This document shows, piece by piece, positions 46,010 to 60,305 of a stretch of 64,000 bases of DNA. Every line of letters begins with the position of its first letter. Position 1 is the first letter of the stretch. Location: assembly GCA_046563655.1 (NCBI GenBank), contig CM102286.1:5394001-5458000 (forward strand). Reading direction: 5' to 3'. The translations under genes and the position numbers were made by a program. Origin of the DNA: Yuukianura sp. NJ FZ-2021. Its lineage: Eukaryota. The notes under the pieces were generated by a model. That model ran no database searches. It saw nothing but the letters and a program-made list of their open reading frames with translations, and was not told the origin of the DNA.

Positions 46010-46531
46010 TTACTTCTTAGCAGATGACGACGCCGCAGCACCGATTGCTGAAGGCAACACTCGAAAAGCCTTTCCATCCAAACTTGCTCTTTCCTTGGCA
46101 GTATTTTCATTCGCTTCGTTGATACTTTTAGTGATTTCAGCCCGAAGTGCGTTCGCCTTCGCATCATGCTTCGGTAGAGCTGGGCGATCTGTATCAAACG
46201 AAAGAAGAGATGAAGTAAGGTAAACGCGATTATAATTGCCTAACCTGGGGGGGAGTGGGTCTAAAATTTTGGTCCCTTTAACGTGAACGACCTGCCCGAT
46301 ACCGTGTAAGATTGGGCCATCATATAATGACCTTTAGAACGAAAAGGAAAACATTGTGGGCTCTTAATGGGTGTATATTTTGCGCATCTTTAATATTACC
46401 CCGTCTCGGGTGACCCGAGTCGAGTCCTTACTTTTCTTTTGAGCAGTACCAGACTTCTTCTTCTTGCTGATGTCCTTCTTGACCTGATTGAGCGGCTTGC
46501 TAGTTTTGACCTTCATTTTCCCTTGTGGCAT
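46010..46531 (-). CDS. Small basic UPF0390 / DUF2462 (C19orf53, Leydig cell tumor 10 kDa protein-like) protein, 92 aa, 2 coding exons
   Basis: Exons 46432-46531 and 46010-46188 (phase 1). Translates MPQGKMKVKTSKPLNQVKKDISKKKKSGTAQKKNRPALPKHDAKANALRAEITKSINEANENTAKERAS...AKK*. The MPQGK.KVKT start and 'ITK.IN...E.....RA' helix match my recollection of the family. A 5'UTR intron is likely at ~46562-46630, and AATAAA lies at 45802-45807 (-). Confidence 0.8.
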
Positions 46532-46639
46532 GTTGAATGGAGGTTTGAGTCAGCCAACAATCTGTTGTAATAAAAGCAGCCTTTAGTGTGAACATACCAC
46601 AATAACGAATTTATGTAAAACTTTACTTACCGATTACAA

Positions 46640-46860
46640 AATGTTTAGCGAAGAGAATGATCGAAGATCGAATAAAGAGATCAGTCTTTTAGATGAATTC
46701 ACCGTGAATTTAAGATTGGCTAGACTCAATAACTAACCTCGATTTTAGCAACGCTGTTATAAAATAAACGTGTTGACGGCAACGATTAAACTTTTATCAG
46801 GGAATAGTCGAATTAGAAAATTAAAGTGAAACGGAAACCCATGTGTTTCATGATCTTCAC
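46640..46860. promoter_or_regulatory. Probable divergent promoter region between the UPF0390-like gene (-) and the methyltransferase/lines unit (+)
   Basis: Inferred from the head-to-head arrangement and splice-site polarity switching across this interval. No core motif firmly identified. Confidence 0.35.
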
Positions 46861-48586
46861 GGCACACAATCTTGCCGTCGCGCTGCTGCTGGTCCTGGTG
46901 TTGGTGTAATTCGGAATTTGCAATGCCTGGGGTCCATAAACTCAGCCGTTCTCAATGGCAATATTCCAAAAGTTCCTCCGAAACCATTTTCAATTGCACT
47001 AAACTGAATCTGTTAATCTCACCGTACGTAGTCACAGCTCAGCCCCAACCAACTTAGGTAACCTAAATAATATTTGCTCAGTGATGACATAATTAATACA
47101 CGTTAGTTATTTCACGCCTAAATTTAGTAAATTTTGATCTATTCATTTAATTATACTCCTTCGTCGGGTCCTTAGCCCACGAAGAGAAAGTTGGAGTAGT
47201 GTAGTGTCACGCCTAAATGAATCGGAATGCAAGACTATGATAATTTAACGTGAATGTGTTAAAATTATAAAGAGTATTTGAATTGTTGCAATTGAAATTT
47301 GTAATACTGTTTACTAGTCAGGATAACGTAACTAAAAAGTCGGATTAGCTAAATTTAATTTATGGTGGCGAGTGGTGGTTTAATTTATGGTGGTAAACTT
47401 TGCGTCAAAAATCTCGGAATTGCAATTTGGAATTACAGCGATTTGCATTTTACTACAATATGGCAATATGAGAGTGAGAATGCGAAGGGTGTTCTGTTCA
47501 TCTTCATCATGAGATGAGATGAGAGGCCCAACAAGAAAGAATTCGGAGTTTTTTTTTATGTGAATGTCGAACGAATGTGTAAAAGAACAGAACATTGAAG
47601 ATTGAAGCGGAGTCCCTTCAAAGAAGAGTTGTTGACCTTGATCATTTCAAAAGGGCACCACCACAAGAGAAACCCAGAAAAGGTAAATTCCCATAAGCTA
47701 AAGCTATCAAAGATAGATATGCCAAAATAAATATTCTCGTGTCTATCATTTTTTGTGCTTCAGCAGGCCCTCTGCCCCGTTGTTCCGCTGCTGCACAGAA
47801 AGTCGGTGATACAGCAGCTTTTCTCGGCTGAAGCTCAACAGGAACCCTGCCCTTTTCTTCGGCTTCGGCATCTTATCCGTTTTGTTGCTACAAGTCGAAG
47901 CTGGACTTCGTCTGGTCTTTTGGCAGCTACGCAGTGCTTGGCAGGGGTCTTCATCTGGGAGCTAGGATGTAAGCAATGAATGAACAATGATCTTGAGTTT
48001 GGGCAAGCACACGCTGAGTCTAATCATTTCCCTGCCTTTCCTTTGGTATGCTACGTTACAGTATGACGGACTGACTGGATGTAAGTGTTCATTGGTTCAG
48101 GGCCCTACAGTTGTAGTAGTCGTGTGCCCACGATCTCAAGTTGAACAAAGCGAGTTTCCGAGAATCTTTCGCCTTTCTTCAAGGGCCCTCCTTACACCGC
48201 TTATGCTAAGCACTCGCCTCGAGCTCTGTCAGTTCTAAGCTCATGCCGCACGGCATAGGCACCCAACGGAGGCCCTTTACGAACTTTCTGCCCTTTTTTA
48301 GCCTTTAGCTAATCCGGGCTCGTCCTTCACCGTCCCTTCATAAAGCTCGAAAGTCATTCCCGTACTGTTCATCTTGATCGTACTTGGTGAAGCCGTGCAT
48401 TTTCCAACTACCCAGCCTCTTCTTTGAAACGTTTGTGGTGTTGCGGTGTTTTATGGATGCTAGTTGAGTGAACTGTTGTTTTGTTTGTTTCCAATTCTGC
48501 GTGTGACTATTTCATTCTTCTTACAGGAACTGAATAATTTCTCGAATAATGTTGTATAACTCCATCCTCTACTCTTGTGCTTTGTA

Positions 48587-49900
48587 ATGAGACTGTTTGG
48601 ATACGAACCTTCCACAAAACAAGTACTTCTCTTCCTTGTGCCGACGGCATCGATTGGTAAGGACTTAAAGGCAGAAGTATCCAATCATTGTATCTTATAA
48701 TACTTGACAAGAAATAAATGTTTTATATAGGAATAGCGTTTGCCGGACGCTTATTATACGGAAAGCTACGTTCAGTTTTGGACTACGAAATTAGCGGCAC
48801 GGAAGACTTGGAGCTACCTACAGCACTTGAAAACGAATATGGAGATTTTCGTGCTAGATGTCGTGAGGCTGACGCTGAAGCGTCGGAGTACTTGAGTTCT
48901 CTTCCGGAAGAATTTTTCCAGTTCAACAGTAATCTAACAAATCTTGTTCTGACGAGTTCAAAAAATCAAGTAAGCATATCAAATCGTTTAATTTTTTGTG
49001 TTGACATGCGTTGTAAACCAATTTGTACCATTTTAATTCAGCCCAAATTTCGACGAGCCTTAGTCATCGGGAGCTCCACTTCTGGCTTCGCGTTTGAATT
49101 ATCGAAACATTTTGCTGAAGTTAAAGGAATCGAAAGCTCTTTCACAAAGGTTGTCACGTCTTACCAGTTTCAAAACGCAAGAAATATTTCGTACTTTTTT
49201 CCATTGGAAGGAAATCATTTTACAAAACGGGTCACCCTCAACAACAAGGATATTTTTCAAAAGTTCAAAAATCAGCTCAAGGTGAGTCAGTATTTTTTAA
49301 AAGCTACTCGCATCTCGTTTATTTTCTCGTAGAACATAAGTTTGTTCTTGTCCTTCCGTTTATAGAATGTCCAGCCATTAGGAAATGTGCAAATTGTTAA
49401 TGCCGATCCTGACGCACGATTCTCAATCAAGATAGGCGTTTTTCACGCAATTGTTCTGTTTTCGTTGAATACTCTGAACAATCCCGAAGAATTGCTTTCA
49501 GCGTTACATCACTTCGTCGAACAAGATTGTTTTCTTTTCATAGTCTCTGACTATAACTGGTCACGATTTACAAATAGGGTAATTAATCAATATTGAAGAA
49601 GTGTATATGCGACTCGTTCTTTTCCATCTTCCGAATCCGAATCGTACATAACTAATTTTGTTTCCTGTTTGTCAGCAGCATCTTGGATTTCCATACCCGG
49701 ATGTCACAACTACATTCGACTTCCTGAAATTGATACTGCAGAAGAATTTTAGTCTGGAAAGTGCGGTATATATGCCAGGCATCACCCCTGTATCTCTTCG
49801 GTCCTGCACTATTCATAACTACCACGTCACTACATGGCGCCGATTAGGAACTACTGTTGATCCAGATGCCAATGACACATGTGACGCTGATTTCGACTGA
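48587..49900 (+). CDS. Divergent class I SAM-dependent methyltransferase-like protein resembling the OvoA C-terminal (mercaptohistidine N-methyltransferase) domain, with an N-terminal hydrophobic anchor; ~328 aa, 5 exons
   Basis: Exons 48587-48656, 48731-48969, 49042-49281, 49366-49578, 49676-49900, all GT-AG and frame-consistent. Motifs RRALVIGSSTSGFAFELSKHFAEVKGIESS, SYFFPLEG, LNTLNNPEELL, FIVSDYNW, TTFDFLKLIL and HVTTWRR parallel the remembered OvoA C-terminal pattern RALDLGCAVGR.SFELA..F.EV.GID.S / Y...EG / LIDRL..P..FL / I.SPYTW / TT...LK.IL / T.WRR. Confidence 0.75.
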
Positions 49901-49973
49901 ACCAATCATCGCAACTGTATGATACTTGTGTGGAAGGGTGAGAAGTTACTGGCCAATATTTTTGAACTTTAAA

Positions 49974-52043
49974 ATGGAAGGTCCAATGGTGAAAAGACCG
50001 AAGTTGATTCCAGAATCAGCATTCAATAGTTCTGATTGGTTGAAGTGGTACGATAACCTGGAAAAACTGCAAGCAAAACTGTTAACTGGTTGCCTATGCC
50101 AGCTACACACAATTGAGTTACACAGACCAATCTTTGCCTCCTTACTCGAATCCAATGAAGCAACTTCAAACGTCGACTTTCCGTCAAAGTATACCCTCCA
50201 ATTCGTCAGTACTTTAAAAATTCTTTGTGAACTTGGTGTTAGCCAACGTGGTATTGGCTTTATTTGTCCCAAAGTTTGTGAAACTGTTACAACTGTATCC
50301 AGAGACGAAGGAATCTGGGAAACATTGCTACAGCTTCTTGGATCATCTGACAAATTCATTTCCTACGTTGGATCAAAGTGCCTCACCTCTCTCCTACTTT
50401 GGACTAAAGTCCCCAGTATCAGTCATGTTTTTGAGGAGCTGCTGCATTCAATAGTTACCGAAACTAGAAATCCACTTCAGATCGCTCACAGTCTGGAAGT
50501 GTTTCGTGGGATAATTGATCACGCTGATGAAGATGAACATCCATTGCAGCTACTTGGAAGTGGAGCGTACGGGAAAAGTAATCCGAAGCCCCAATGTGTG
50601 AAGATAGAAATTGACGAGTCGGAATCCGACATTGAAGTAAAAGACGTTTGTATCACTGCCCTAGAATCATGGTGGACACGGTTGATTACAAAATTCAAGC
50701 ACATGCTATCAAATTACCAAGAAGATTATGAACATTGTATTACAACCTTCCTATCTCTCTGGCAGAGCATTGTTTCTGTCAAGTCCAACCTTAACGTCGT
50801 CGACACGAAGCATTTCTACTTACAAGTTGACTCGTTTGTGTCTCATCTAAACTCGGCTCTACCTTCCACGTTATGGAAGAAACTAATTGACGTTTTCAAT
50901 GAGATTTTGTGTTACGGAAGCACTCTCTCACTCCAAGACTCCCTTCCCGAAGAACCTTGTGACCTTGCTCACCTAATTCTTCGGCATGTCAAAAGTCGGC
51001 ATTTTCTCCAAGGAATACCATATTCCCGCTCATTTACATCTTTTGGCGGAACTTCATGGACAAAACCTACCGACTCGGCGTGGGAGAGTGATTCAATTTC
51101 AGAAGGGAGTTTTGCAAGTCAACGCCAATCACATGATTCGGTCCAGTCCATAGCATCAACATCGCCAAGGTCAACATTGCGGGCACAGTCATCCGGTGCC
51201 AAAAGCTTGCCAACCACATCCTCCGCAAATACAAGTACAGAAATTGCGTCAGCATCGGCACCACTATCTGTAACTATTCAAATTGGGATGACTCCGTTTA
51301 TTGTGCATGAGGAATTAGAGCCATTGGATGGTGGAGATCGACCTCTACTTCAGAAAGTTGTACTTTTGATACTGAAGTGTGTTGCAGTAACAGTTAGAGA
51401 AACGAAGGAAGAAGGAGATAGCAGTGACGAGGAAGAGCCAGAAGATGAAGAAGATGCTGGCGGAGGTCAAAGGTCAAGTGGGGACTCTGATTTCAACGAC
51501 ATGGTTATCATTGAGAAGTCCGTTCGTGAGGTTTTTAGCTGTTTGGATTCATATGTCAAATCAATCCTTCCATATCATCCTGCCATGCCTCTCTGCCAGT
51601 GGATTGTGAAATTATTTGAAGATCAAGATGACGTTCTCGTAGAAGGGATGTTGTGTGCCCTGGACAGTTTCACTGCATTCATTGGTAGGATTGACATTAC
51701 GACTGATTTTTATCAGCAGTTCAATCCCGTGTCAACGTTCATGGCCTTTGCAGACACAATATCCGAAGACAAGTCCGTGCTGATGGATTTGTTGATGGGA
51801 AACGAAACCAATTTCCTACTCTACCTCCTTAGGTTACTCAAGTATGTCACAAAGAATTGGGAGAAATTTACCAGTACTTGCGGAAGAGATGTAGGGAAAA
51901 TTGTAGGACTTTTTATTAGACTAAAAATAGCGCTGGTAAACAGTCCTCATTTTCCGTATAACATTGATCCGATTATACGTTTGCTAGAACGGTGTGAAAG
52001 CAGTTACGAGTCCTCCAGTAGTAGTGTTGCTATCATTTCTTAA
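49974..52043 (+). CDS. lin: Protein lines (LINS1 homolog), intronless, 689 aa from the first ATG
   Basis: Long single-exon ORF. The true start is probably AAAATG at 49974 (MEGPMVKRPK), not the TTG at 49926. Lines-family motifs: ILCYGSTLSLQD.L.EEPC.LAH, DR.LLQKVVLLILK.VAV, LF.DQDD.LVE.MLC.LD, DLLMGNETNFLLYLLRLLKY, FPYNI.P..RLLE.CE. Confidence 0.93.
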   Translation: MEGPMVKRPKLIPESAFNSSDWLKWYDNLEKLQAKLLTGCLCQLHTIELHRPIFASLLESNEATSNVDFPSKYTLQFVSTLKILCELGVSQRGIGFICPKVCETVTTVSRDEGIWETLLQLLGSSDKFISYVGSKCLTSLLLWTKVPSISHVFEELLHSIVTETRNPLQIAHSLEVFRGIIDHADEDEHPLQLLGSGAYGKSNPKPQCVKIEIDESESDIEVKDVCITALESWWTRLITKFKHMLSNYQEDYEHCITTFLSLWQSIVSVKSNLNVVDTKHFYLQVDSFVSHLNSALPSTLWKKLIDVFNEILCYGSTLSLQDSLPEEPCDLAHLILRHVKSRHFLQGIPYSRSFTSFGGTSWTKPTDSAWESDSISEGSFASQRQSHDSVQSIASTSPRSTLRAQSSGAKSLPTTSSANTSTEIASASAPLSVTIQIGMTPFIVHEELEPLDGGDRPLLQKVVLLILKCVAVTVRETKEEGDSSDEEEPEDEEDAGGGQRSSGDSDFNDMVIIEKSVREVFSCLDSYVKSILPYHPAMPLCQWIVKLFEDQDDVLVEGMLCALDSFTAFIGRIDITTDFYQQFNPVSTFMAFADTISEDKSVLMDLLMGNETNFLLYLLRLLKYVTKNWEKFTSTCGRDVGKIVGLFIRLKIALVNSPHFPYNIDPIIRLLERCESSYESSSSSVAIIS

Positions 52044-52185
52044 GGACCCTACTTACGATTAGTTAACTACAGCAGTGAATCCAAATTATTTGTTATAATT
52101 TATTCATCTTCCACGCCAAAATAGCAAAAATGCATGAAGTTTTTGCGAACTATAAGGTTGTGCAATTTTTGGTAACAGCTAAGTA

Positions 52186-52191
52186 AATAAA
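52186..52191 (+). terminator. Polyadenylation signal for lines (possibly for the whole methyltransferase-lines transcript)
   Basis: AATAAA about 140 nt after the lines stop codon. Confidence 0.55.
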
Positions 52192-53919
52192 AGAACCTAA
52201 AAAGAATTCACGACTTTCGTGCAAGTTAACTTTATTTTTGAAGATTATTTAGTTGCTAACATTTAGGAAAACGCAACGATTATGTTAGGAATACCATCGT
52301 AGCGATAGTTAAACTTAAAAATTGTTAAACTAAAATGCCAATTTATTGATATCTGCAATGGAATTACCCAACGCGCCTCGAGAGATTTGTTTTGGTTTTT
52401 AAATGTTAATGGCGCTTGTGCTAGAATTTCTTTTCCTTTTCATCTCTTCGACTTCTCGTGTTTTTCTCTTGGTTTCTTTTCTGTTCTGTTCGTTTTGTAC
52501 TTGTACTGTGATGAAGGTCAAAAGTTGCACTTGTAAGGTCGAAGGTGGAATCATTTTCTGTTTTTGCTTTAGGATACTACTCCAGTATTAAGTACTGGAC
52601 GAGAAAAACAGTATTTTTGACTATTTTGACATCATAAGGTTACCCAAAAACGAATGAAAGGTTACCTACCGGTGAAGGTGATGTGAAAGGTACGTTCTCA
52701 TAGTTTTTTTTTAATTTCGTTGAACTGAACTCATTATGCTCATTATGCTGGAAGTTATTAGAAGAATACTATGTATTTTTTTAGGTAGTTCGTTAATACA
52801 TGATTACCAATCATTTTGCAGTAAATACTAATTATGTTTATGTAGTTTTGAAAATTAATTTTTAATATGCTTGTAGGTTCGCTCTCATCGTCGGACATCG
52901 CAATCAATGGGGTCAGAGCAACACCTTAAATTTCTATCATTTCTGAGGTTGCAAGGTCACACAATCTTCACAGGCCGTGGCCGTCATTTTCGAACGGGAA
53001 CTGAAGGTATCTCCAACTCACGTTCAGCTTATCCATTAATTCCACAAGCAAAATGTTTTGGTAAGAAATGAACAGACTGCTTTGGTAAGTAAAGCAGCAG
53101 TAAATGTCGTAAATGTTTCCGCAACATTGTCGCTTCCCCATTTGTGCACATTCCCATCCTACTAACCAATGGAACATAACAACTGGCGTCACAGTCCTTG
53201 ACCCTCCAAAGAGTTGACTATTCCTAATTCCTGTATTCCTAATCCTAATTCCAAATTGGTATTAGTGTTAACATGAATAACACGTAGGAGGTTGAAATTG
53301 GAATTTCTAGCCTTTCCTTTGCAGTGTCACACTAAAAATCGTTCAGTAGGATTCAGTTAGACCCTAATGTGTATGTTTCCTCAAGTAGTACACACTTCTG
53401 GGATTTTATTTCTCGCAATCATTCTTATAAGTTAGTCTACTAGACTACTTATCAAACTATTATTGTATGTCAACCAACTTGGGTCAAGGTCAGGCAGAGT
53501 TACAGCCAAAATGAACGGGCGATACTGAGTTGATGGAAAGTGGTTCACATTGAGACTGGGATCTTTTCAAAGATCACTTCACTACTACTGTCAAACTTAA
53601 TCTCCTCAAGTGGCAGCTCTTGCTGGAGATGGTAGTAACTCATACTACTTGAACACTTTAATAGATGACCACTCGGCTGTTATGTTGCAACAAATAATTC
53701 CCCTGCGTTTAACTTTACTTACTAATGGTCTCCCAACTTCCTAAACCTTGAATCTCAGTTTTTCCTCAGCCAGTCTTTTTACAATCAGGGAGTTGTTCAC
53801 TCGTCGCAACTGATTCCAAAAAATTCTGGAAGCAAGTCCCAAATCGAACAACGCAGGAGATTAACCCAATACGGAAATCATTCTCGGTTCTGCGCCAGGA
53901 AAAGTTGAAGTATTTCAGT

Positions 53920-56900
53920 ATGGCAAAAATTATTTCTGGTACCGAAGTTTCAAAGTAAGTATCCACTTATATTTTCATTAAGATTTATAACGACATGTTT
54001 CCATTTTTTTAAAAACGTATTTCATGTCTTTTTCTCACAGGCAAATCCAACTGGAACTCAAAGATGAAGTGACGAAAATGATGGCGGAAAACAACAACTA
54101 CCGCCCGGGGTTAGCCATTGTTCAAGTTGGGGGTCGTGAGGATTCTAATGTCTACATTCGAATGAAACTCAAGGCTGCTACAGAAATTGGAATCGACGGT
54201 CAACTCTTTAAGTTTCCTAGAACAATTACTGAGTCAGAGGTTTGCTACGATTTCTAAAACGTTACATTATATTTGAGTATAGGTCAAGTTACTCCGAATT
54301 CACTCGTAATTTTATTAATATTACGATGTAGTTGCTGGCCGAGCTGAACAAACTCAACAACGACCCAAAGTTTCATGGAATCATTGTACAAATGCCGTTG
54401 GATGTGGACAACCCTATCGACTCTCATAAGATTACTGATGCGGTGGATCCTGGCAAAGATGTTGATGGGTGAGGCTAACTGAAATATGATAAGAAAGAGT
54501 TATAAATCTAATCGTAAGTATCATTTAAGAGGGTCAGTGAAAGACGACACTCTTTTGCACCATCATAATCATTGAGTTATAACGTCTTCTTCCAGTGTAG
54601 TGTGATTATTACATCAAAACACTAGCAAATGAAGAATGTCTATTGCGCAATTACTGAAAAGATATTTCTGTTGGTTCCGTCGTAGGTTGTGTACAATCAA
54701 TGAAGGTCGCCTCGCAACTGGAGACATGAAATCAGGTTTCATGCCGTGCACCCCCTTCGGTTGTATTGAATTGATCAGGAGGTAAGAGTATACTGCTGAA
54801 TAGAAAATTGAATATGTTTACGTTCTTCAAAATGTTTACGAAATGAATTTTTGAATTTAGAACAGGCGTGCCGATTACTGGGTCAACTGCAGTGGTGCTC
54901 GGGAGGAGTAAAATTGTCGGAACTCCGGCCGCTGAGCTTCTCAAATGGCATGATGCGACTGTCACCGTGTGCCACTCAAAGACTAAAAATCTGAAAGATG
55001 TTGTAAGGAACGAGATTAAATATGATTATTTTTGGCATACTTGCGTAACTGGATTAAGACTAAGAAAGTTTGTGTTGCTTGTTTCAGGTAAAAACTGCTG
55101 AAATCTTGGTTGTGGGAATCGGTAGACCTGAAATGGTGAAAGGTGACTGGGTGAAACCTGGTGCAGTTGTAATTGACTGTGGCATCAATGCAATTCCTGA
55201 CGCCACCAAGAAGAGTGGCCAAAGGCTTGTCGGAGACGTGGCTTACGAAGAGGTTAGCAAAGTAGCTGGATATATCACCCCGGTTCCCGGTGGCGTCGGT
55301 AAGATTTACATTGAAAAATTGCGTTTCTCTATTATTATTTTTTAAATTACGACGACTCGTGCTAATTCTACTTTTTTTTCTCTGAAGGTCCTATGACCGT
55401 TTGCATGTTGATGAAAAATACCGTGATCTCTGCCTGGAGGGCCCTGAAAGAGCATGGCAGCGGTTCTTGGAACTTGACTCCACTATCAATTCATCCAAAA
55501 GATCCTGTTCCAACGTAATATAAAACTTAAGTTTACATTTTCAGATAATACTCCGCCGTTGCCTCTCTTTGGACGACTATCGAATCGAAACGGGAATTGT
55601 CATTAATCTTTTCCCAAATCGAATCTGATTGTCCGGTATTCGTGCTCAAACAGTGTAGTATGTAGTGCTCAGATTCATTCAGGAAATAAATAAGGCCAAT
55701 TATCGAAACACCCATGTTTTGTGTTATTTCTGACTAAAAGTCTCTTGTGTTCCTTCATCCTGCTTCCTGAATTGACGCTCAGTTGTTCCACCTTGCTTTG
55801 TTGTGTCGTTTCAAATCCACGTTTTTCAAATTTTATTTCAAATTGATTCTCATATTTTCAGAGACCTTGAGGTTGCCAGATCCCAGACGCCAAAAGACAT
55901 CACAATTTTGGCGAAAGAAATCGGCATTTTACCAGATGAATTGGAATTGTATGGGACCAGAAAAGCCAAAGTCTCACTCAATGTTGTGAAACGATTAAGT
56001 GGGAACAAAAACGGGAAGTATGTTGTGGTCGCCGGGTAAGTTATCACAATTCGTTAATTAGAACCATGAAGTGCTACTGCTAAAACAACGGAATTGTACT
56101 TTTTTTCAGAATGACGCCTACTCCACTTGGCGAGGGCAAAAGTACAACAACTATGGGGCTGGCTCAGGCTCTCGGGGCGCATTTGAAGAAAAACGTTTTC
56201 GCTTGCATCCGACAGCCTTCTCAAGGTCCAACATTCGGCATCAAAGGTGGAATTTATAACTTAGGCACAACTTTATGCAAAAACTATCAATTCACGTAAA
56301 GTCTAAAACATGTTTTTGCAGGCGGAGCTGCCGGAGGAGGTACGGTTGCTTGAGTTAAGTTCAGCAAACGACATGCGTAAAATGTTGAATGAATTCCAGG
56401 GTACTCTCAAGTCATTCCAATGGAGGAGTTCAATCTGCATTTGACCGGTGACATCCATGCAATCACGGCAGCCAACAATTTACTGGCTGCTCAAATTGAC
56501 ACTCGCATGTTTCACGAAAAGACACAGAAAGATACGGCTCTTTACAATAGACTGGTTCCTGGAAAACCCGGGACGCGGAAATTCTCGAACATCCAAGTTA
56601 GTGCCGTAAAATTGCAGTGCGTTGTTATGTAATATATTAAGCTGGAATCAGTCATTGTGTAATTTTTTCCCATCTGCAGCTTAATAGACTCAAAAAGCTT
56701 GGCATTATGAAGACTGATCCAGACTCGCTTACTGATGAAGAGATTACGCGATTCGCACGACTTAACATCAATCCTGACACTATCACTTGGACACGCGGTA
56801 CTATAACTAATTTTTACAACGAATAACAACTTTGTGTAGTGAGTCATCTTGATTTTGCGCAGTCTTGGACACGAATGACAGATTTCTACGTCAAATTACT

Positions 56901-58516
56901 GTGGGTCAAGCATCAACTGAGGAGAAACATGCACGCTCTACGAGTTTCAAAATTACCGTCGCGAGTGAAATCATGGCTGTTCTAGCTTTGGCTAAAGATT
57001 TGAAGGATATGAGAGAAAAACTTGGTAAAATGGTTATAGGGAGCGACCACAATGATAACCCAATTACAGCAGAAGACTTGGTATGTTTTTGCAAGCAACT
57101 AGTTTTAAGTTGTCTGCTTGCTCAATTTGCTTGATCTTGATCGTAGGGGGTGTCTGGAGCGTTAGCAGTTCTGATGAAAGATGCTATTCGACCAACGTTA
57201 ATGCAAACTTTGGAAGGAACCCCCGGTAAGTTTTCAGTACTTAACCATACCATAATATATTAGGATGGCCGTCCAAGTTAGATCAAATTCCAGTTAGTTA
57301 GTATTATTTGCTGCAGTAATTCGTTTCTTGTAGTCATGGTTCACGCTGGACCATTTGCCAACATTGCCCACGGTAATTCCTCCATTGTCGCTGATGAGAT
57401 TGCACTAAAATTGGTTGGCGAGGAAGGATTCGTGATCACGGAAGCTGGATTTGGGGCAGATATTGGTAAAAATCTAAAATATTTTTAGTTTAAGTTTCCA
57501 TTTGATACATCTTGAACTTTTCTTTGTTGCTAAACAGGAATGGAAAAGTTTATGAACATCAAGACGAGATATTCAGGGCTCCGTCCATCTGCTGTCGTAA
57601 TTGTGGCTACCATAAGAGCGTTAAAAATGCACGGGGGCGCTCCAAACGTAACTCCTGGAACCCCATTGCCTGCAGCGTATTCTGAGGTATTCAGTGCACA
57701 AGTCTAAAATAACTTTTTTTTTTTAAATTACTACGCAGTTGTCTACTATTGCAGGAGAATTTGGATTTTGTGCGTAAAGGTTTCGAAAACGTTAAGCAGC
57801 AAATTCAGAGTGCCAACAAATTCGGCGTTCCTGTAATCATTGGACTCAATAGGTTCAAGTAAGTTGAAAACTTTGTCATACTAAAACCGGAAAATATATG
57901 AGTGACCTACGACCTATTCCTCTCATTAGGACGGACACAGCGAACGAACTCTCTCTGGTCCAAAAACTGTCTCTAGAATGCGGAGCTTTCGATGCAGTTG
58001 TAACTGACCATTGGTCTAAGGGTGGAGCCGGAGCTGTGGATTTGGCAAACTCCTTGATTAAGGCTACAAGTGCACCAAATGATTTTAAGTTCCTGTATGA
58101 CTTGTCTTTACCACTCGAGGAGAAAATTAGGAAGATCGCCTGCGAAATCTATGGAGCGGATGATATTGAACTATCGGAAAAAGCTGCATCCAGGATTGCA
58201 CTCTACACAAAGCAAGGCTTCGGTAACCTGCCAATCTGTATCGCGAAAACGCATCTCTCGCTTTCGCATGATCAAAATTTGAAGGGCGCACCGAAAGGAT
58301 TCAAGCTACCAATCAGCGATGTGACCGCCAGTATTGGAGCAGGGTTCATCATTCCATTAGTGGGAGCCGTAAGTTTTGTTATCATGTAAACGGAAATCAT
58401 AGTGTTAAAAGCGGCGTATTTTGTAGACGCCTACCATACCGGGTCTCCCCACTCGTCCGTGTTTCTACGACGTCGACATCAATCCAGAGACAGAAGAAAT
58501 TGAAGGATTGTTTTAA
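53920..58516 (+). CDS. pug: C-1-tetrahydrofolate synthase (trifunctional dehydrogenase/cyclohydrolase/formyl-THF synthetase; pugilist/MTHFD1), 19 coding exons
   Basis: Exons 53920-53954, 54041-54239, 54332-54468, 54686-54781, 54861-55002, 55088-55298, 55388-55514, 55862-56035, 56110-56246, 56322-56339, 56400-56596, 56680-56797, 56863-57080, 57147-57225, 57334-57465, 57538-57686, 57755-57858, 57930-58368, 58427-58516. Motifs [86 protein letters not shown] and C-terminal IEGLF. Confidence 0.97.
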
Positions 58517-58560: not shown

Positions 58561-60305
58561 TCAACAAATTACTTTTTTGGCAGCTTGGAGTATATGCTTA
58601 TCCAATTGAACTAAAAACCAAACAAATAAAACTGGATTAGTTTTACCAATCAATCGCTAACCAATCCCTATTACTACTATTAATACTTTCACGTGGGAAT
58701 AAGTAAATAAGTGAAGTTAACTTTAGTATGTCCACTTACATATTTTCGACTTTCCGGGAATCGGGATAGGAGTTCGAAGTTGTTTTGGATTCGCCAGAAT
58801 AAGCACATAAGGGTCAGAAACTTCCCCGTTTGGGTACAATTCCAAATACTCTTCCTGAGGAATGCAATCCAGCAAATCCAAGCATCCGAGTAGCACCCCA
58901 GTTGGGTAATTTGATGGAAAGCCAACATCTGAAATACAGAAAGCAATCAAATTGTTTAATGAAAAATCACTATTCTATTTCGTTCAATATGTACGCCATA
59001 TTTGTTAGCTTGAATACCTCCGACAATATGGCGATAACATGCCTCGACTTGAGACGTGAGCTCTGGTGTAGGTGGTTTCTGTCCAGAACAAATCCAGAGA
59101 CGTCCTCTTACTGGTGTATACCACGACCTTCCCTCGAACCTGTTGAAATTTAAAAAATTTGGATTTAAAGAAAATGAGTTTTTAGTTTATGGTTATATGA
59201 TATACCTTTTAATGCCTTCAATGATTAGTGTCGCATAAGGTTGAGAAACAGACAGACAATTTCCAACATCCACCATTTCTTGAAGCTCTGGATCTTGAAG
59301 TCTACTCGACCAGAGTACTGTATTTGAAACGCCAGACTTTTTGAGGCTACCGAGGAATTCCGGTTTCATGAGTTCAACTCCCTCACTTGTATCTTCTCGC
59401 ATTCTGTCGTCGACTTTCGGTTTTGCATTTAGGAAACTCAGGTCCTCAAATATTCTCAACTCAGGTACTTCCTCAATGATTCTTCGGCCTAAATTAGAAA
59501 AATACATGCGAATGCGATGTAAATTCGGTTTAGGTGTAGGATTAGGACGTACCTGCGAAATCAATGGTTACTTTCGTTTTGCGCTTCAGTCGATCCTTTG
59601 CTTCTTGGTATGCTGTCTTTTTCTCTTTCATAACTTTTTTCTCTTCTTCTGATAACCAAGGACTCTCTGTTGCGAAGTAATCAGACTGATCATCAATCAC
59701 TTTCGTACGCCTGGCACTTGTACGATCATACTCCAATAGCCGTTCTTTCGTGGCTTGGGCTTGATTCTCTTGCTCTTGACGCATAGCTTCTTGTGATTGA
59801 TATTGCAGTTTGTTGTATTTTGCAATTAATCGCTGCGCTTCCTTGGTATTCCCAGCTGCCACTTTTGCTCGTTCATCCTTACTCATTACCTAGACACAAA
59901 TTACTAGTAGTTTTAGGATAAATCGTACTAATTTACAAGTTCTTTCATGAGACCAACTCACAACGTCACCGCAAAACATGCAAGGTCCAGCCCCTTCTTG
60001 AATGCAGACAATCCGACCACATGATAAACAATTGTTTACGAGTTCATGCTTCATTGCCAAGCAGTCGCATCTTTGACGTCCTAAGAATAGAACAAAAGTA
60101 CACTTTTTGATAACTATATAAAATTATTTTTTCTAAAGAATTGCATTAAATATTAGCTTCTATTATTCCTTAAGAACTAAGAACAGTCGTAGTTTTATCT
60201 TTTATGTATTACGGATGATAAAATGGATTGTTTATACGAACCTGGAAGAATAGGTGCTGGTAAAGAAGCATTAATTTTAACAAACTTTGTCTTTTTTGGT
60301 GGCAT
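58561..60305 (-). CDS. TRIP4: Activating signal cointegrator 1 (ASC-1/TRIP4): C2HC5 zinc finger plus ASCH domain, 7 coding exons
   Basis: Exons 60242-60305, 59962-60080, 59553-59889, 59206-59488, 59018-59139, 58740-58928, 58561-58610. Motifs CDCLAMKHELVNNCLSCGRIVCIQEGAGPCMFCG, LLEYDRTSARRTKVIDDQSDYF, VTIDFAGR, CLSVSQPYATLIIEGIKRFEGRSWYT..RGRLWI, YPTGVLLGC. Confidence 0.95.

What the first reader, a model, noticed from the sequence alone, without database searches (positions are those of the whole stretch)
48549..52191. Apparent bicistronic methyltransferase-lines unit with stop-start coupled uORFs before both cistrons
Seen: the methyltransferase stop (TGA 49898-49900) and the lines ATG (49974) are on the same strand 73 nt apart. 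The gap has no AATAAA/ATTAAA and no pyrimidine-rich splice acceptor, and the first AATAAA I found downstream is at 52186. The two frames differ, so this is not readthrough. The gap is mostly filled by a 17-aa ORF (49919-49972, MILVWKGEKLLANIFEL*) whose TAA sits 1 nt before the lines ATG (TAA-A-ATG). The methyltransferase ATG likewise overlaps the stop of a 12-aa uORF (48549-48587, MLYNSILYSCAL*) as TAATG. Known: UAAUG overlap is the termination-reinitiation geometry of influenza B M1/BM2. Inference: a cellular polycistronic mRNA may make the dose-sensitive regulator Lines by ribosome relay through short ORFs. Caveats: TAATG arises easily in AT-rich start contexts, and there is no exact UGGGA TURBS core (only TGGAA at 49931).
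Basis: partly seen in the sequence, partly recalled or inferred. Interest (0 to 1): 0.75.

Follow-up and report, generated by a model that had tools for sequence, protein, structure and literature searches.

The report
Springtail methyltransferase-lines linked gene pair
A methyltransferase gene and the developmental gene lines sit 73 bases apart, as they do in related springtails, and probably share one messenger RNA end, an arrangement well known in flies, while the proposed ribosome relay through tiny reading frames is not conserved and is probably chance.

Summary
All coordinates check out. The genome is springtail-like. The upstream gene is a five-exon, probably membrane-anchored relative of the ovothiol (OvoA-C/OvoM) methyltransferase. 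The downstream gene is a single-exon lines with a conserved start.

The adjacency is conserved: two metagenomic relatives keep the order with gaps of 148 and 225 nt. No AATAAA/ATTAAA lies in any of the 3 gaps, whereas 7 of 8 control gene ends have one within 217 nt. A transcript spanning both genes is therefore likely (about 0.7), but no RNA was available to show it.

The relay is not supported. Stop-start coupling occurs at 0 of 3 testable starts in relatives, and 12% of arbitrary ATGs show it. There is no TGGGA near the stop and no unusual structure, and the methyltransferase stop is 73 nt from lines, beyond TURBS range. Out-of-frame AUGs are not depleted, though in-frame Met is scarce.

Best reading: an ordinary arthropod dicistronic-type locus, with Lines made mostly from a shorter or alternatively spliced mRNA. 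The scan noted other such pairs in this genome, not this one. Aside: the genome holds a complete ovoA.

The parts
47600..48430 (+). Probable non-coding spliced leader (donors 47683, 47969, 48081; acceptors 47763, 48301); boundaries and promoter uncertain
   Evidence: Splice-like sites; no convincing Pfam hit in the 21+2 open frames of 46587-48511 scanned (one sub-threshold hit at E 0.16); no Rfam hit; single copy in the genome. Inference only.
48510..48526 (+). Strong splice acceptor of a 5'-UTR intron; makes MT coding exon 1 an internal, skippable exon
   Evidence: Highest acceptor score in the region, 8.0; L002 has candidate acceptors 46-55 nt before its MT ATG
48549..48587 (+). uORF1, 12 aa, TAATG overlap with the MT start; not conserved
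   Evidence: L002 has no ATG in the 200 nt before its MT start
48587..48656 (+). MT exon 1 (start codon, hydrophobic anchor begins)
   Evidence: N-terminus aligns with L002 and Allacma fusca P0054
48731..48969 (+). MT exon 2
49042..49281 (+). MT exon 3 (degenerate SAM-binding glycine motif)
   Evidence: TIGR04345 E 3.4e-10
49366..49578 (+). MT exon 4
   Evidence: TIGR04345 E 1.4e-4
49676..49900 (+). MT exon 5 to the stop; spliced product 328 aa, stand-alone OvoA-C/OvoM-like class I methyltransferase
   Evidence: orthologue P0054 matches OvoM 9bxl, OvoA 8khq, OvsM 9bxh
49866..49922 (+). Out-of-frame 18-aa ORF crossing the MT stop; its TGA overlaps the uORF2 start as ATGA
49901..49973 (+). 73-nt gap between the ORFs; no poly(A) hexamer, no acceptor, no unusual structure, no sequence conservation
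49919..49972 (+). uORF2, 17 aa, weak start context (T at -3), stop 1 nt before the lines ATG; position not conserved
   Evidence: last uORF ends 10 nt (L002) and 91 nt (L003) before lines
49974..52043 (+). lines (LINS1 orthologue), single exon, 689 aa, start in strong context (A at -3, G at +4)
   Evidence: PF14694 E 1.6e-69; start Met aligned in 7 of 8 homologues, the eighth being N-terminally incomplete
52186..52191 (+). AATAAA, probable poly(A) signal shared by both genes
   Evidence: first canonical hexamer after the MT stop (+2286) and after the lines stop (+143)

Best explanation
A conserved springtail tandem pair with a shared 3' end, of the commonest fly 'dicistronic' type. Shown: two real genes, same strand, 73 nt apart, same order and short gap in relatives. 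Inferred: the MT gene has no poly(A) site of its own, so its spliced mRNA runs through the intronless lines ORF to 52186 and is structurally dicistronic; on it lines is mostly 3' UTR. Inferred, weaker: Lines protein comes mainly from a second mRNA that lacks the MT start, begun at a promoter in the 3' part of the MT gene or made by splicing the upstream leader past MT exon 1, and is started by ordinary scanning at its strong AUG. The two uORFs are lineage-specific: uORF2 (weak context) is mostly skipped, uORF1 at most dampens MT initiation. They are not a relay.
For: Order MT-lines with gaps 73/148/225 nt in 3 of 3 springtail-like loci, while lines-MTHFD1 spacing is 1.9 and 3.4 kb. Canonical hexamer within 9-217 nt at 7 of 8 control gene ends, against first hits at +2286, +1241, +438 after the MT stops. 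The MT CDS keeps 11, 15 and 7 internal ATGs, with out-of-frame ones at or near expectation (10 vs 10.4, P 0.52; 11 vs 10.1, P 0.73; 7 vs 10.9, P 0.07), which argues against scanning through it. In D. melanogaster only 45 of 159 dicistronic pairs are exclusively so, and 3' genes usually have their own promoter or a splice form that disrupts the 5' ORF (examples). Lines leaders outside springtails also carry 3-6 uATGs (L005-L007).
Against: No RNA evidence for any isoform. No fly-type core promoter motif recurs in the MT 3' region of the three loci, so the internal promoter is assumed, not found. In-frame Met is scarce in the MT (7 of 1,306 internal residues in four orthologues; 3 of 800 in ten further fragments) and MT starts have weaker context than lines starts, both of which favour scanning through the MT ORF. 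Six of the eight poly(A) controls are lines orthologues, so not independent; L002 has AGTAAA and AATAAG in its gap.
Confidence: 0.45

Rival explanations
1. Exclusively dicistronic mRNA read by leaky scanning plus serial reinitiation: some 40S subunits pass the modest MT start (helped in this species by the overlapping uORF1), translate short out-of-frame ORFs inside the MT CDS, resume scanning and start at the strong lines AUG, giving a little Lines tied to MT transcription.
For: Internal Met at positions 287 (window); 79, 243, 288, 294 (L002); none (L003); 292, 321 (Allacma) (output). Against the 2.06% rate of the window's MTHFD1 exons, P = 0.009, 0.22, 0.001, 0.03. In-frame AUGs would trap a ribosome in a long ORF while out-of-frame AUGs open only 1-18 aa (window) and 1-27 aa (L002) ORFs. 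MT starts have G-3/T-2/A+4, lines starts purine-3/G+4, the pattern reported for algal bicistrons (abstract). Gaps lie in the -34 to 319 nt range of exclusively polycistronic fly loci.
Against: Out-of-frame AUGs are not depleted, and many have a purine at -3; 7-15 AUGs must be passed, plus a uATG-rich leader. Against the same-locus lines Met rate the deficit is P 0.07, 0.79 and 1e-4; the monocistronic-looking OvoA C-domain of this genome is also Met-poor (3 of about 255), so this may be a family trait. Orthologues are not independent samples.
Confidence: 0.25
2. Two separate monocistronic genes packed head to tail: MT ends at a non-canonical poly(A) site in the gap or early lines sequence, lines starts from a promoter inside MT, and spanning RNA is only rare read-through.
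For: Many arthropod poly(A) sites lack AATAAA/ATTAAA (own knowledge); variant hexamers in the L002 gap and around the L003 MT stop; ATTAAA inside lines at +438 (L003) and +1241 (L002) could serve MT alone; an embedded promoter alone would keep the gap short.
Against: The window has none of 15 hexamers from 49850 until AATGAA at 50154; the variant sites are not at matching positions in the three loci.
Confidence: 0.22
3. One reading: ribosomes finishing the MT ORF are held on the mRNA, reinitiate at uORF2 18 nt on, then at lines 1 nt after its stop; uORF1 couples likewise into MT (TURBS-like termination-reinitiation on a cellular mRNA).
For: The geometry exists, with an extra ATGA junction at 49919. 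An ATG lies within 20 nt of the MT stop in 3 of 3 loci (+18, -8, -4). Taken at face value the two exact junction types together are rare (0.029 x 0.021).
Against: An ATG lies within 20 nt of 51% of 1,130 arbitrary stops, so 3 of 3 has P about 0.13. Coupling at 0 of 3 testable starts in relatives. No TGGGA in the spliced MT plus gap of the window or L002; one at -424 in L003. Folding z-scores +0.99 to -0.71 in 8 of 8 segments. TURBS needs stop and start within about 20-30 nt; MT-lines is 73-225 nt. TAAAATG is simply an A-rich start context. The junction classes were chosen after the fact.
Confidence: 0.05
4. Fusion protein, readthrough, or an operon resolved by spliced-leader trans-splicing.
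For: Short gap; moderate acceptor-like AGs in the L002 and L003 gaps (scores 1.5, 1.7).
Against: Frames differ in the window; no acceptor and no poly(A) signal in the window's gap; springtail Lines homologues begin at the same Met; a search for Collembola with spliced leader listed 3 papers, none on this by title or abstract.
Confidence: 0.03

Closest known systems
Drosophila melanogaster dicistronic loci (FlyBase R6.04; Crosby et al. 2015, PMC4528330), especially those whose 3' member has an alternative promoter or a splice form disrupting the 5' CDS (e.g. lat/CG34315, Menl-1/Menl-2, MED9/CG42518 in File S1)
   Same: Two unrelated ORFs, same strand, stop-start distance under 320 nt, apparent shared 3' end.
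   Different: No spanning cDNA here. lin itself is not in File S1 (whole-word search for lin, CG11770, FBgn0002552, the last two identifiers recalled). The 5' gene is a 328-aa multi-exon enzyme with 11 internal AUGs.
TURBS termination-reinitiation (influenza B M1/BM2, caliciviruses) and the SART1 UAAUG junction (as reviewed in PMC10275272)
   Same: A UAAUG overlap and a stop 1 nt before an AUG occur.
   Different: Both junctions follow short uORFs, not the long ORF; long-ORF stop is 73 nt from lines; no motif, no structure, no conservation.
Leaky-scanning bicistrons of green algae (Duenas et al. 2025, PMC11892635)
   Same: ORF1 start context weaker than ORF2; in-frame AUGs scarce.
   Different: Out-of-frame AUGs are not depleted before ORF2.
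OvoA C-terminal domain / OvoM / OvsM thio- and selenohistidine N-methyltransferases (TIGR04345; PDB 9bxl, 8khq, 9bxh)
   Same: Sequence and predicted-fold homology over the whole domain.
   Different: Stand-alone, N-terminal hydrophobic segment, glycine motif lacking the acidic residue, below the family cut-off (84.6 bits for the Allacma orthologue against 170); the genome has a separate complete ovoA. Substrate unknown.
Drosophila Lines / human LINS1 (substrate adaptor for Hyd/UBR5 degrading Bowl, inhibited by Drm; PMC11368183)
   Same: PF14694 above cut-off; orthologous.
   Different: Here placed directly behind an unrelated methyltransferase; no MT match in the 257-827 nt available before the lines match in L004-L007.

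Membership tests
Fly-type dicistronic locus | Two conserved protein-coding ORFs on one strand with a short stop-start distance | tested here: met
   73/148/225 nt; both proteins conserved
Fly-type dicistronic locus | A processed mRNA that contains both ORFs | not testable with these tools
   No RNA run was listed
Fly-type dicistronic locus | No poly(A) site between the ORFs | tested here: inconclusive
   No canonical hexamer in 3 of 3 gaps vs 7 of 8 control ends, but variant hexamers in L002 and L003; motif evidence only
TURBS termination-reinitiation | Stop of the long upstream ORF within about 20 nt of the downstream start | tested here: not met
   73, 148, 225 nt to lines; limit. Met only towards short ORFs (+18, -8, -4), which has a 51% background
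   No TGGGA in window or L002 MT mRNA plus gap; L003 only at -424
TURBS termination-reinitiation | [quoted passage not shown] | tested here: not met
   z from +0.99 to -0.71 in 8 of 8 segments
TURBS termination-reinitiation | Conserved stop-start geometry | tested here: not met
   0 of 3 testable starts in relatives
TURBS termination-reinitiation | Downstream translation depends on upstream termination | not testable with these tools
   needs reporters
Leaky-scanning bicistron | Weaker start context at ORF1 than ORF2 | tested here: met
   By eye, 2 MT starts vs 3 lines starts; no species-specific Kozak matrix
Leaky-scanning bicistron | AUG depletion before ORF2 | tested here: inconclusive
   Out-of-frame not depleted (P 0.52, 0.73, 0.07); in-frame Met low but family control also low
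SL trans-spliced operon | Poly(A) signal plus splice acceptor in the intercistronic region | tested here: not met
   Neither in the window's gap
SL trans-spliced operon | SL RNA genes in the genome | not tested
   Only 44-54 kb of the window was scanned against Rfam
OvoA (bifunctional ovothiol synthase) | Methyltransferase fused behind a sulfoxide synthase | tested here: not met
   All three frames are closed between the 48526 acceptor and the MT ATG (sequence); the N-part matches elsewhere in the genome with its own C-domain
OvoM-like stand-alone methyltransferase | TIGR04345 score above the curated cut-off | tested here: not met
   39.9, 21.5, 11.5 bits per exon frame; 84.6 for P0054 vs 170: homologue, not equivalog
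Lines/LINS1 | LINES_N domain above cut-off | tested here: met
   235 bits vs 25; LINES_C 22.5 vs 27, below cut-off

The most novel reading that the evidence does not exclude
Across Collembola, Lines is made only from an MT-lines mRNA, by ribosomes that cross a 1-kb first cistron with 7-15 AUGs by hopping through short out-of-frame ORFs. Selection would purge only in-frame AUGs from the first cistron, and species-specific uORFs at both starts would tune the Lines dose. That would be a cellular long-first-cistron case solved by serial reinitiation, with a testable sequence signature for the many fly dicistrons that do not fit simple scanning.
Probability: 0.2. Interest if true: 0.65.

Novelty: new member of a known kind. 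Interest (0 to 1): 0.3.

Why it matters
As most likely, it adds one conserved, apparently unreported gene pair to a class that covers 2.5% of fly protein-coding genes, and warns annotators that the MT and lines models share a 3' end. It would matter more if long reads show no lines-only mRNA: how ribosomes reach a second ORF behind a long AUG-containing first ORF is open (Crosby et al. note most fly pairs do not meet scanning requirements), and this pair offers three natural variants and a titration-regulated protein (Lines against Drm) as read-out.

Tried and rejected
RNA evidence: no RNA holder listed for 46600-52300, so no reads were laid; this says nothing either way. More relatives: Lines alignment found nothing in genome contigs (96 candidate stretches) or viral contigs (50). 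MT homologue searches by word index found none or only the query, so Orchesella and Folsomia adjacency could not be read from accession numbers. Split-OvoA idea (MT as the detached half of ovoA): rejected, the genome's ovoA has its own C-domain. Hidden third ORF or RNA in the 46.6-48.5 kb leader: no Pfam, Rfam or paralogue; longest ORF 83 aa, unspliced. Apparent likeness of the uORF2 end to the L002 uORF end: gap alignment no better than shuffles, but introns and 3' UTR controls are also saturated, so power is low. Synonymous constraint in MT exon 5 (window vs L002): 8 of 19 identical codons against 41% gene-wide, none. Promoter motif scan: nothing shared. Retrocopy origin of intronless lines: not supported, since full-length unspliced Lines ORFs also sit on long non-springtail contigs (e.g. 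P0011, P0030; inference from contig length). Long proteins P0065, P0066, P0068 as Met controls: rejected as spurious matches. The L003 null used a wrong frame and is replaced. In one search loci L034 and L035 overlap, so its 'own paralogue' tally and Fisher test double-count and are not used. An attempt to collect real start codons from long ORFs gave only 4 candidates, too few, so the null rests on all ATGs.
Full report
Observation. Every coordinate in the finding is right: uORF1 48549-48587 overlapping the methyltransferase (MT) ATG as TAATG, MT stop 49898-49900, a 73-nt gap, uORF2 49919-49972 ending one base before the lines ATG at 49974, and the first AATAAA at 52186. One more junction was missed: an 18-aa out-of-frame ORF from 49866 ends in ATGA on the uORF2 start. 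The window lies at C4:5394001-5458000 of a 98.7-Mb, 22-contig genome. The closest named Lines homologue is from Orchesella dallaii (44%) and the only full-length MT homologue found is from Allacma fusca, so the organism is springtail-like.

The two genes. lines is a single 689-aa ORF matching PF14694; its first Met aligns in 7 of 8 close homologues, the eighth lacking its N-terminus. In Drosophila, Lin is a substrate adaptor for Hyd that degrades Bowl and is displaced by Drm; hypomorphs act like dosage-dependent tumour suppressors (PMC11368183, passages), which gives modest backing to 'dose-sensitive'. The MT has five coding exons with GT-AG introns of 72-97 nt and gives 328 aa, 59%, 37% and 35% identical to the L002, L003 and Allacma orthologues, with a hydrophobic segment starting at residue 13. 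Its exons match TIGR04345, the OvoA C-terminal domain, below cut-off; the Allacma orthologue matches OvoM, OvoA and OvsM structures, and by language-model features a mostly chordate cluster of stand-alone proteins. It is not a detached half of ovoA: the genome has a complete intron-containing ovoA 5.2 Mb away. Its substrate is unknown; small-molecule N-methylation is my guess from homology. A very strong acceptor at 48526 shows that the MT start exon is internal, behind a probably non-coding spliced leader with no Pfam or Rfam match.

Conservation of the pair. A metagenome scan gave six Lines loci. The two springtail-like ones, L002 (73%) and L003 (44%), both carry the MT directly upstream with the same four intron positions, and L003 also keeps MTHFD1 downstream. 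Gaps are 148 and 225 nt, while lines-MTHFD1 distances are 1.9 kb (window) and 3.4 kb (L003). Two more contigs of 4,628 and 8,558 bp seem to carry both MT exons and lines, inferred only from equal contig lengths in one source. The other four loci (L004-L007, more distant arthropod-like Lines) show no MT, but their upstream sequence is short.

Is there a spanning mRNA? No RNA could be examined, so this is inference. Absence of a hexamer in a short gap means little alone (10.7-31.7% of random stretches of these lengths have one), but gene ends do carry them: 7 of 8 control ends within 9-217 nt, against first hits at +2286, +1241 and +438 after the three MT stops, the last two inside lines. Six controls are lines orthologues, and variant hexamers occur in the L002 gap and at the L003 stop. 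I put a substantial spanning transcript at about 0.7.

The relay. Among 6,519 ATGs with leader-like GC in 264 kb of this genome, 12.4% have a uORF ending between -4 and +2 and 21% within 10 nt; the exact classes are 2.9% and 1.4-2.1%. In relatives the coupling is absent at 3 of 3 testable starts: no ATG in 200 nt before the L002 MT start, last uORF ending 10 nt (L002) and 91 nt (L003) before lines. Lines leaders without an MT neighbour also have uORFs ending 14-55 nt before the start (L005-L007). The gaps do not align better than shuffles. TURBS reinitiation follows a long ORF, needs stop and start within about 20-30 nt, an 18S-complementary motif and a structure (PMC10275272, passages and section 13). 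Here the long-ORF stop is 73 nt or more from lines, TGGGA is absent near it, and no segment folds better than shuffles (8 of 8). In favour of a loose relay, all three loci have an ATG within 20 nt of the MT stop, but so do 51% of arbitrary stops. I give the relay 0.05.

How is Lines then made? Scanning through the MT ORF predicts AUG depletion (PMC11892635, abstract and outline). Out-of-frame ATGs are at expectation in the window and L002 and only slightly low in L003. In-frame Met, however, is scarce: 7 of 1,306 internal residues in four orthologues, one only in their first 240 residues, and 3 of 800 in ten further exon fragments, against 16 of 777 in MTHFD1. This is what serial reinitiation or an exon-1-skipped mRNA would select for. 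It is weakened by the low Met rate of lines in the window and L002 lineage (1.3%, 1.0%), by 3 of about 255 in this genome's OvoA C-domain, and by shared ancestry. In flies, 114 of 159 dicistronic pairs have a monocistronic alternative, the 3' gene usually from its own promoter or a disrupting splice (PMC4528330, section 6; File S1 parts 1 and 3 of 6 read). I therefore rank a lines mRNA lacking the MT start first (0.45), exclusive dicistronic scanning second (0.25) and fully separate genes third (0.22). No promoter motif was found to support the first.

Novelty. lin is not in the FlyBase polycistronic list. Searches for Collembola or Folsomia with polycistronic, operon, dicistronic or trans-splicing, Collembola with spliced leader, springtail with long-read or bicistronic and Lines terms listed no paper on this pair by title or abstract; the library lacks most subscription papers, and genome-paper supplements were not read. 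Earlier notes of this scan list several other dicistronic candidates in the same genome (unchecked AI notes) and nothing on this locus. Interest 0.3.

Noticed in passing
G000:C4:229839-232646 (-); loci L008, L034, L035: A complete, intron-containing ovoA (sulfoxide synthase TIGR04344 E 3e-102 plus methyltransferase TIGR04345 E 8e-45) in a springtail-like genome. PMC8623360 (passages) says ovoA was thought lost in most terrestrial arthropods and does not mention Collembola; searches for ovothiol with Collembola or springtail listed 1 unrelated paper and 0 papers. Origin (vertical or horizontal) not tested.
   Followed up: partly
G000:C2:2053605-2055004 (-); loci L011, L012: A second, weaker match to the sulfoxide-synthase model (E 1e-16), possibly an EgtB- or formylglycine-enzyme-like gene.
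   Followed up: no
window 48587-49900 and orthologues: In-frame Met is nearly absent from the first 240 residues of the springtail MT family while out-of-frame ATGs are normal; unexplained.
   Followed up: partly
L003:1565-1702: In this relative the MT stop overlaps an ATG as ATGA and three short ORFs follow one another 4-5 nt apart, ending 91 nt before lines.
   Followed up: partly
window 49936-49943: A donor-like site (GTGAGA, score 3.3) lies in the gap; no counterpart in L002 or L003 gaps.
   Followed up: no
window 46367-46531 (-) and 46750-48430 (+): A small basic-protein gene (weak DUF2462 match, E 0.15) diverges from a 1.7-kb single-copy, partly GC-rich, apparently non-coding region with splice sites and many short ORFs, including a 22-codon hydrophobic one at 46840 (read from the sequence).
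   Followed up: partly
window 53920-58516 (+), 58900-60250 (-): MTHFD1 (C1-THF synthase; PF00763, PF01268) follows lines here and in L003; a TRIP4/ASC-1 gene (PF23134) converges on it.
   Followed up: partly
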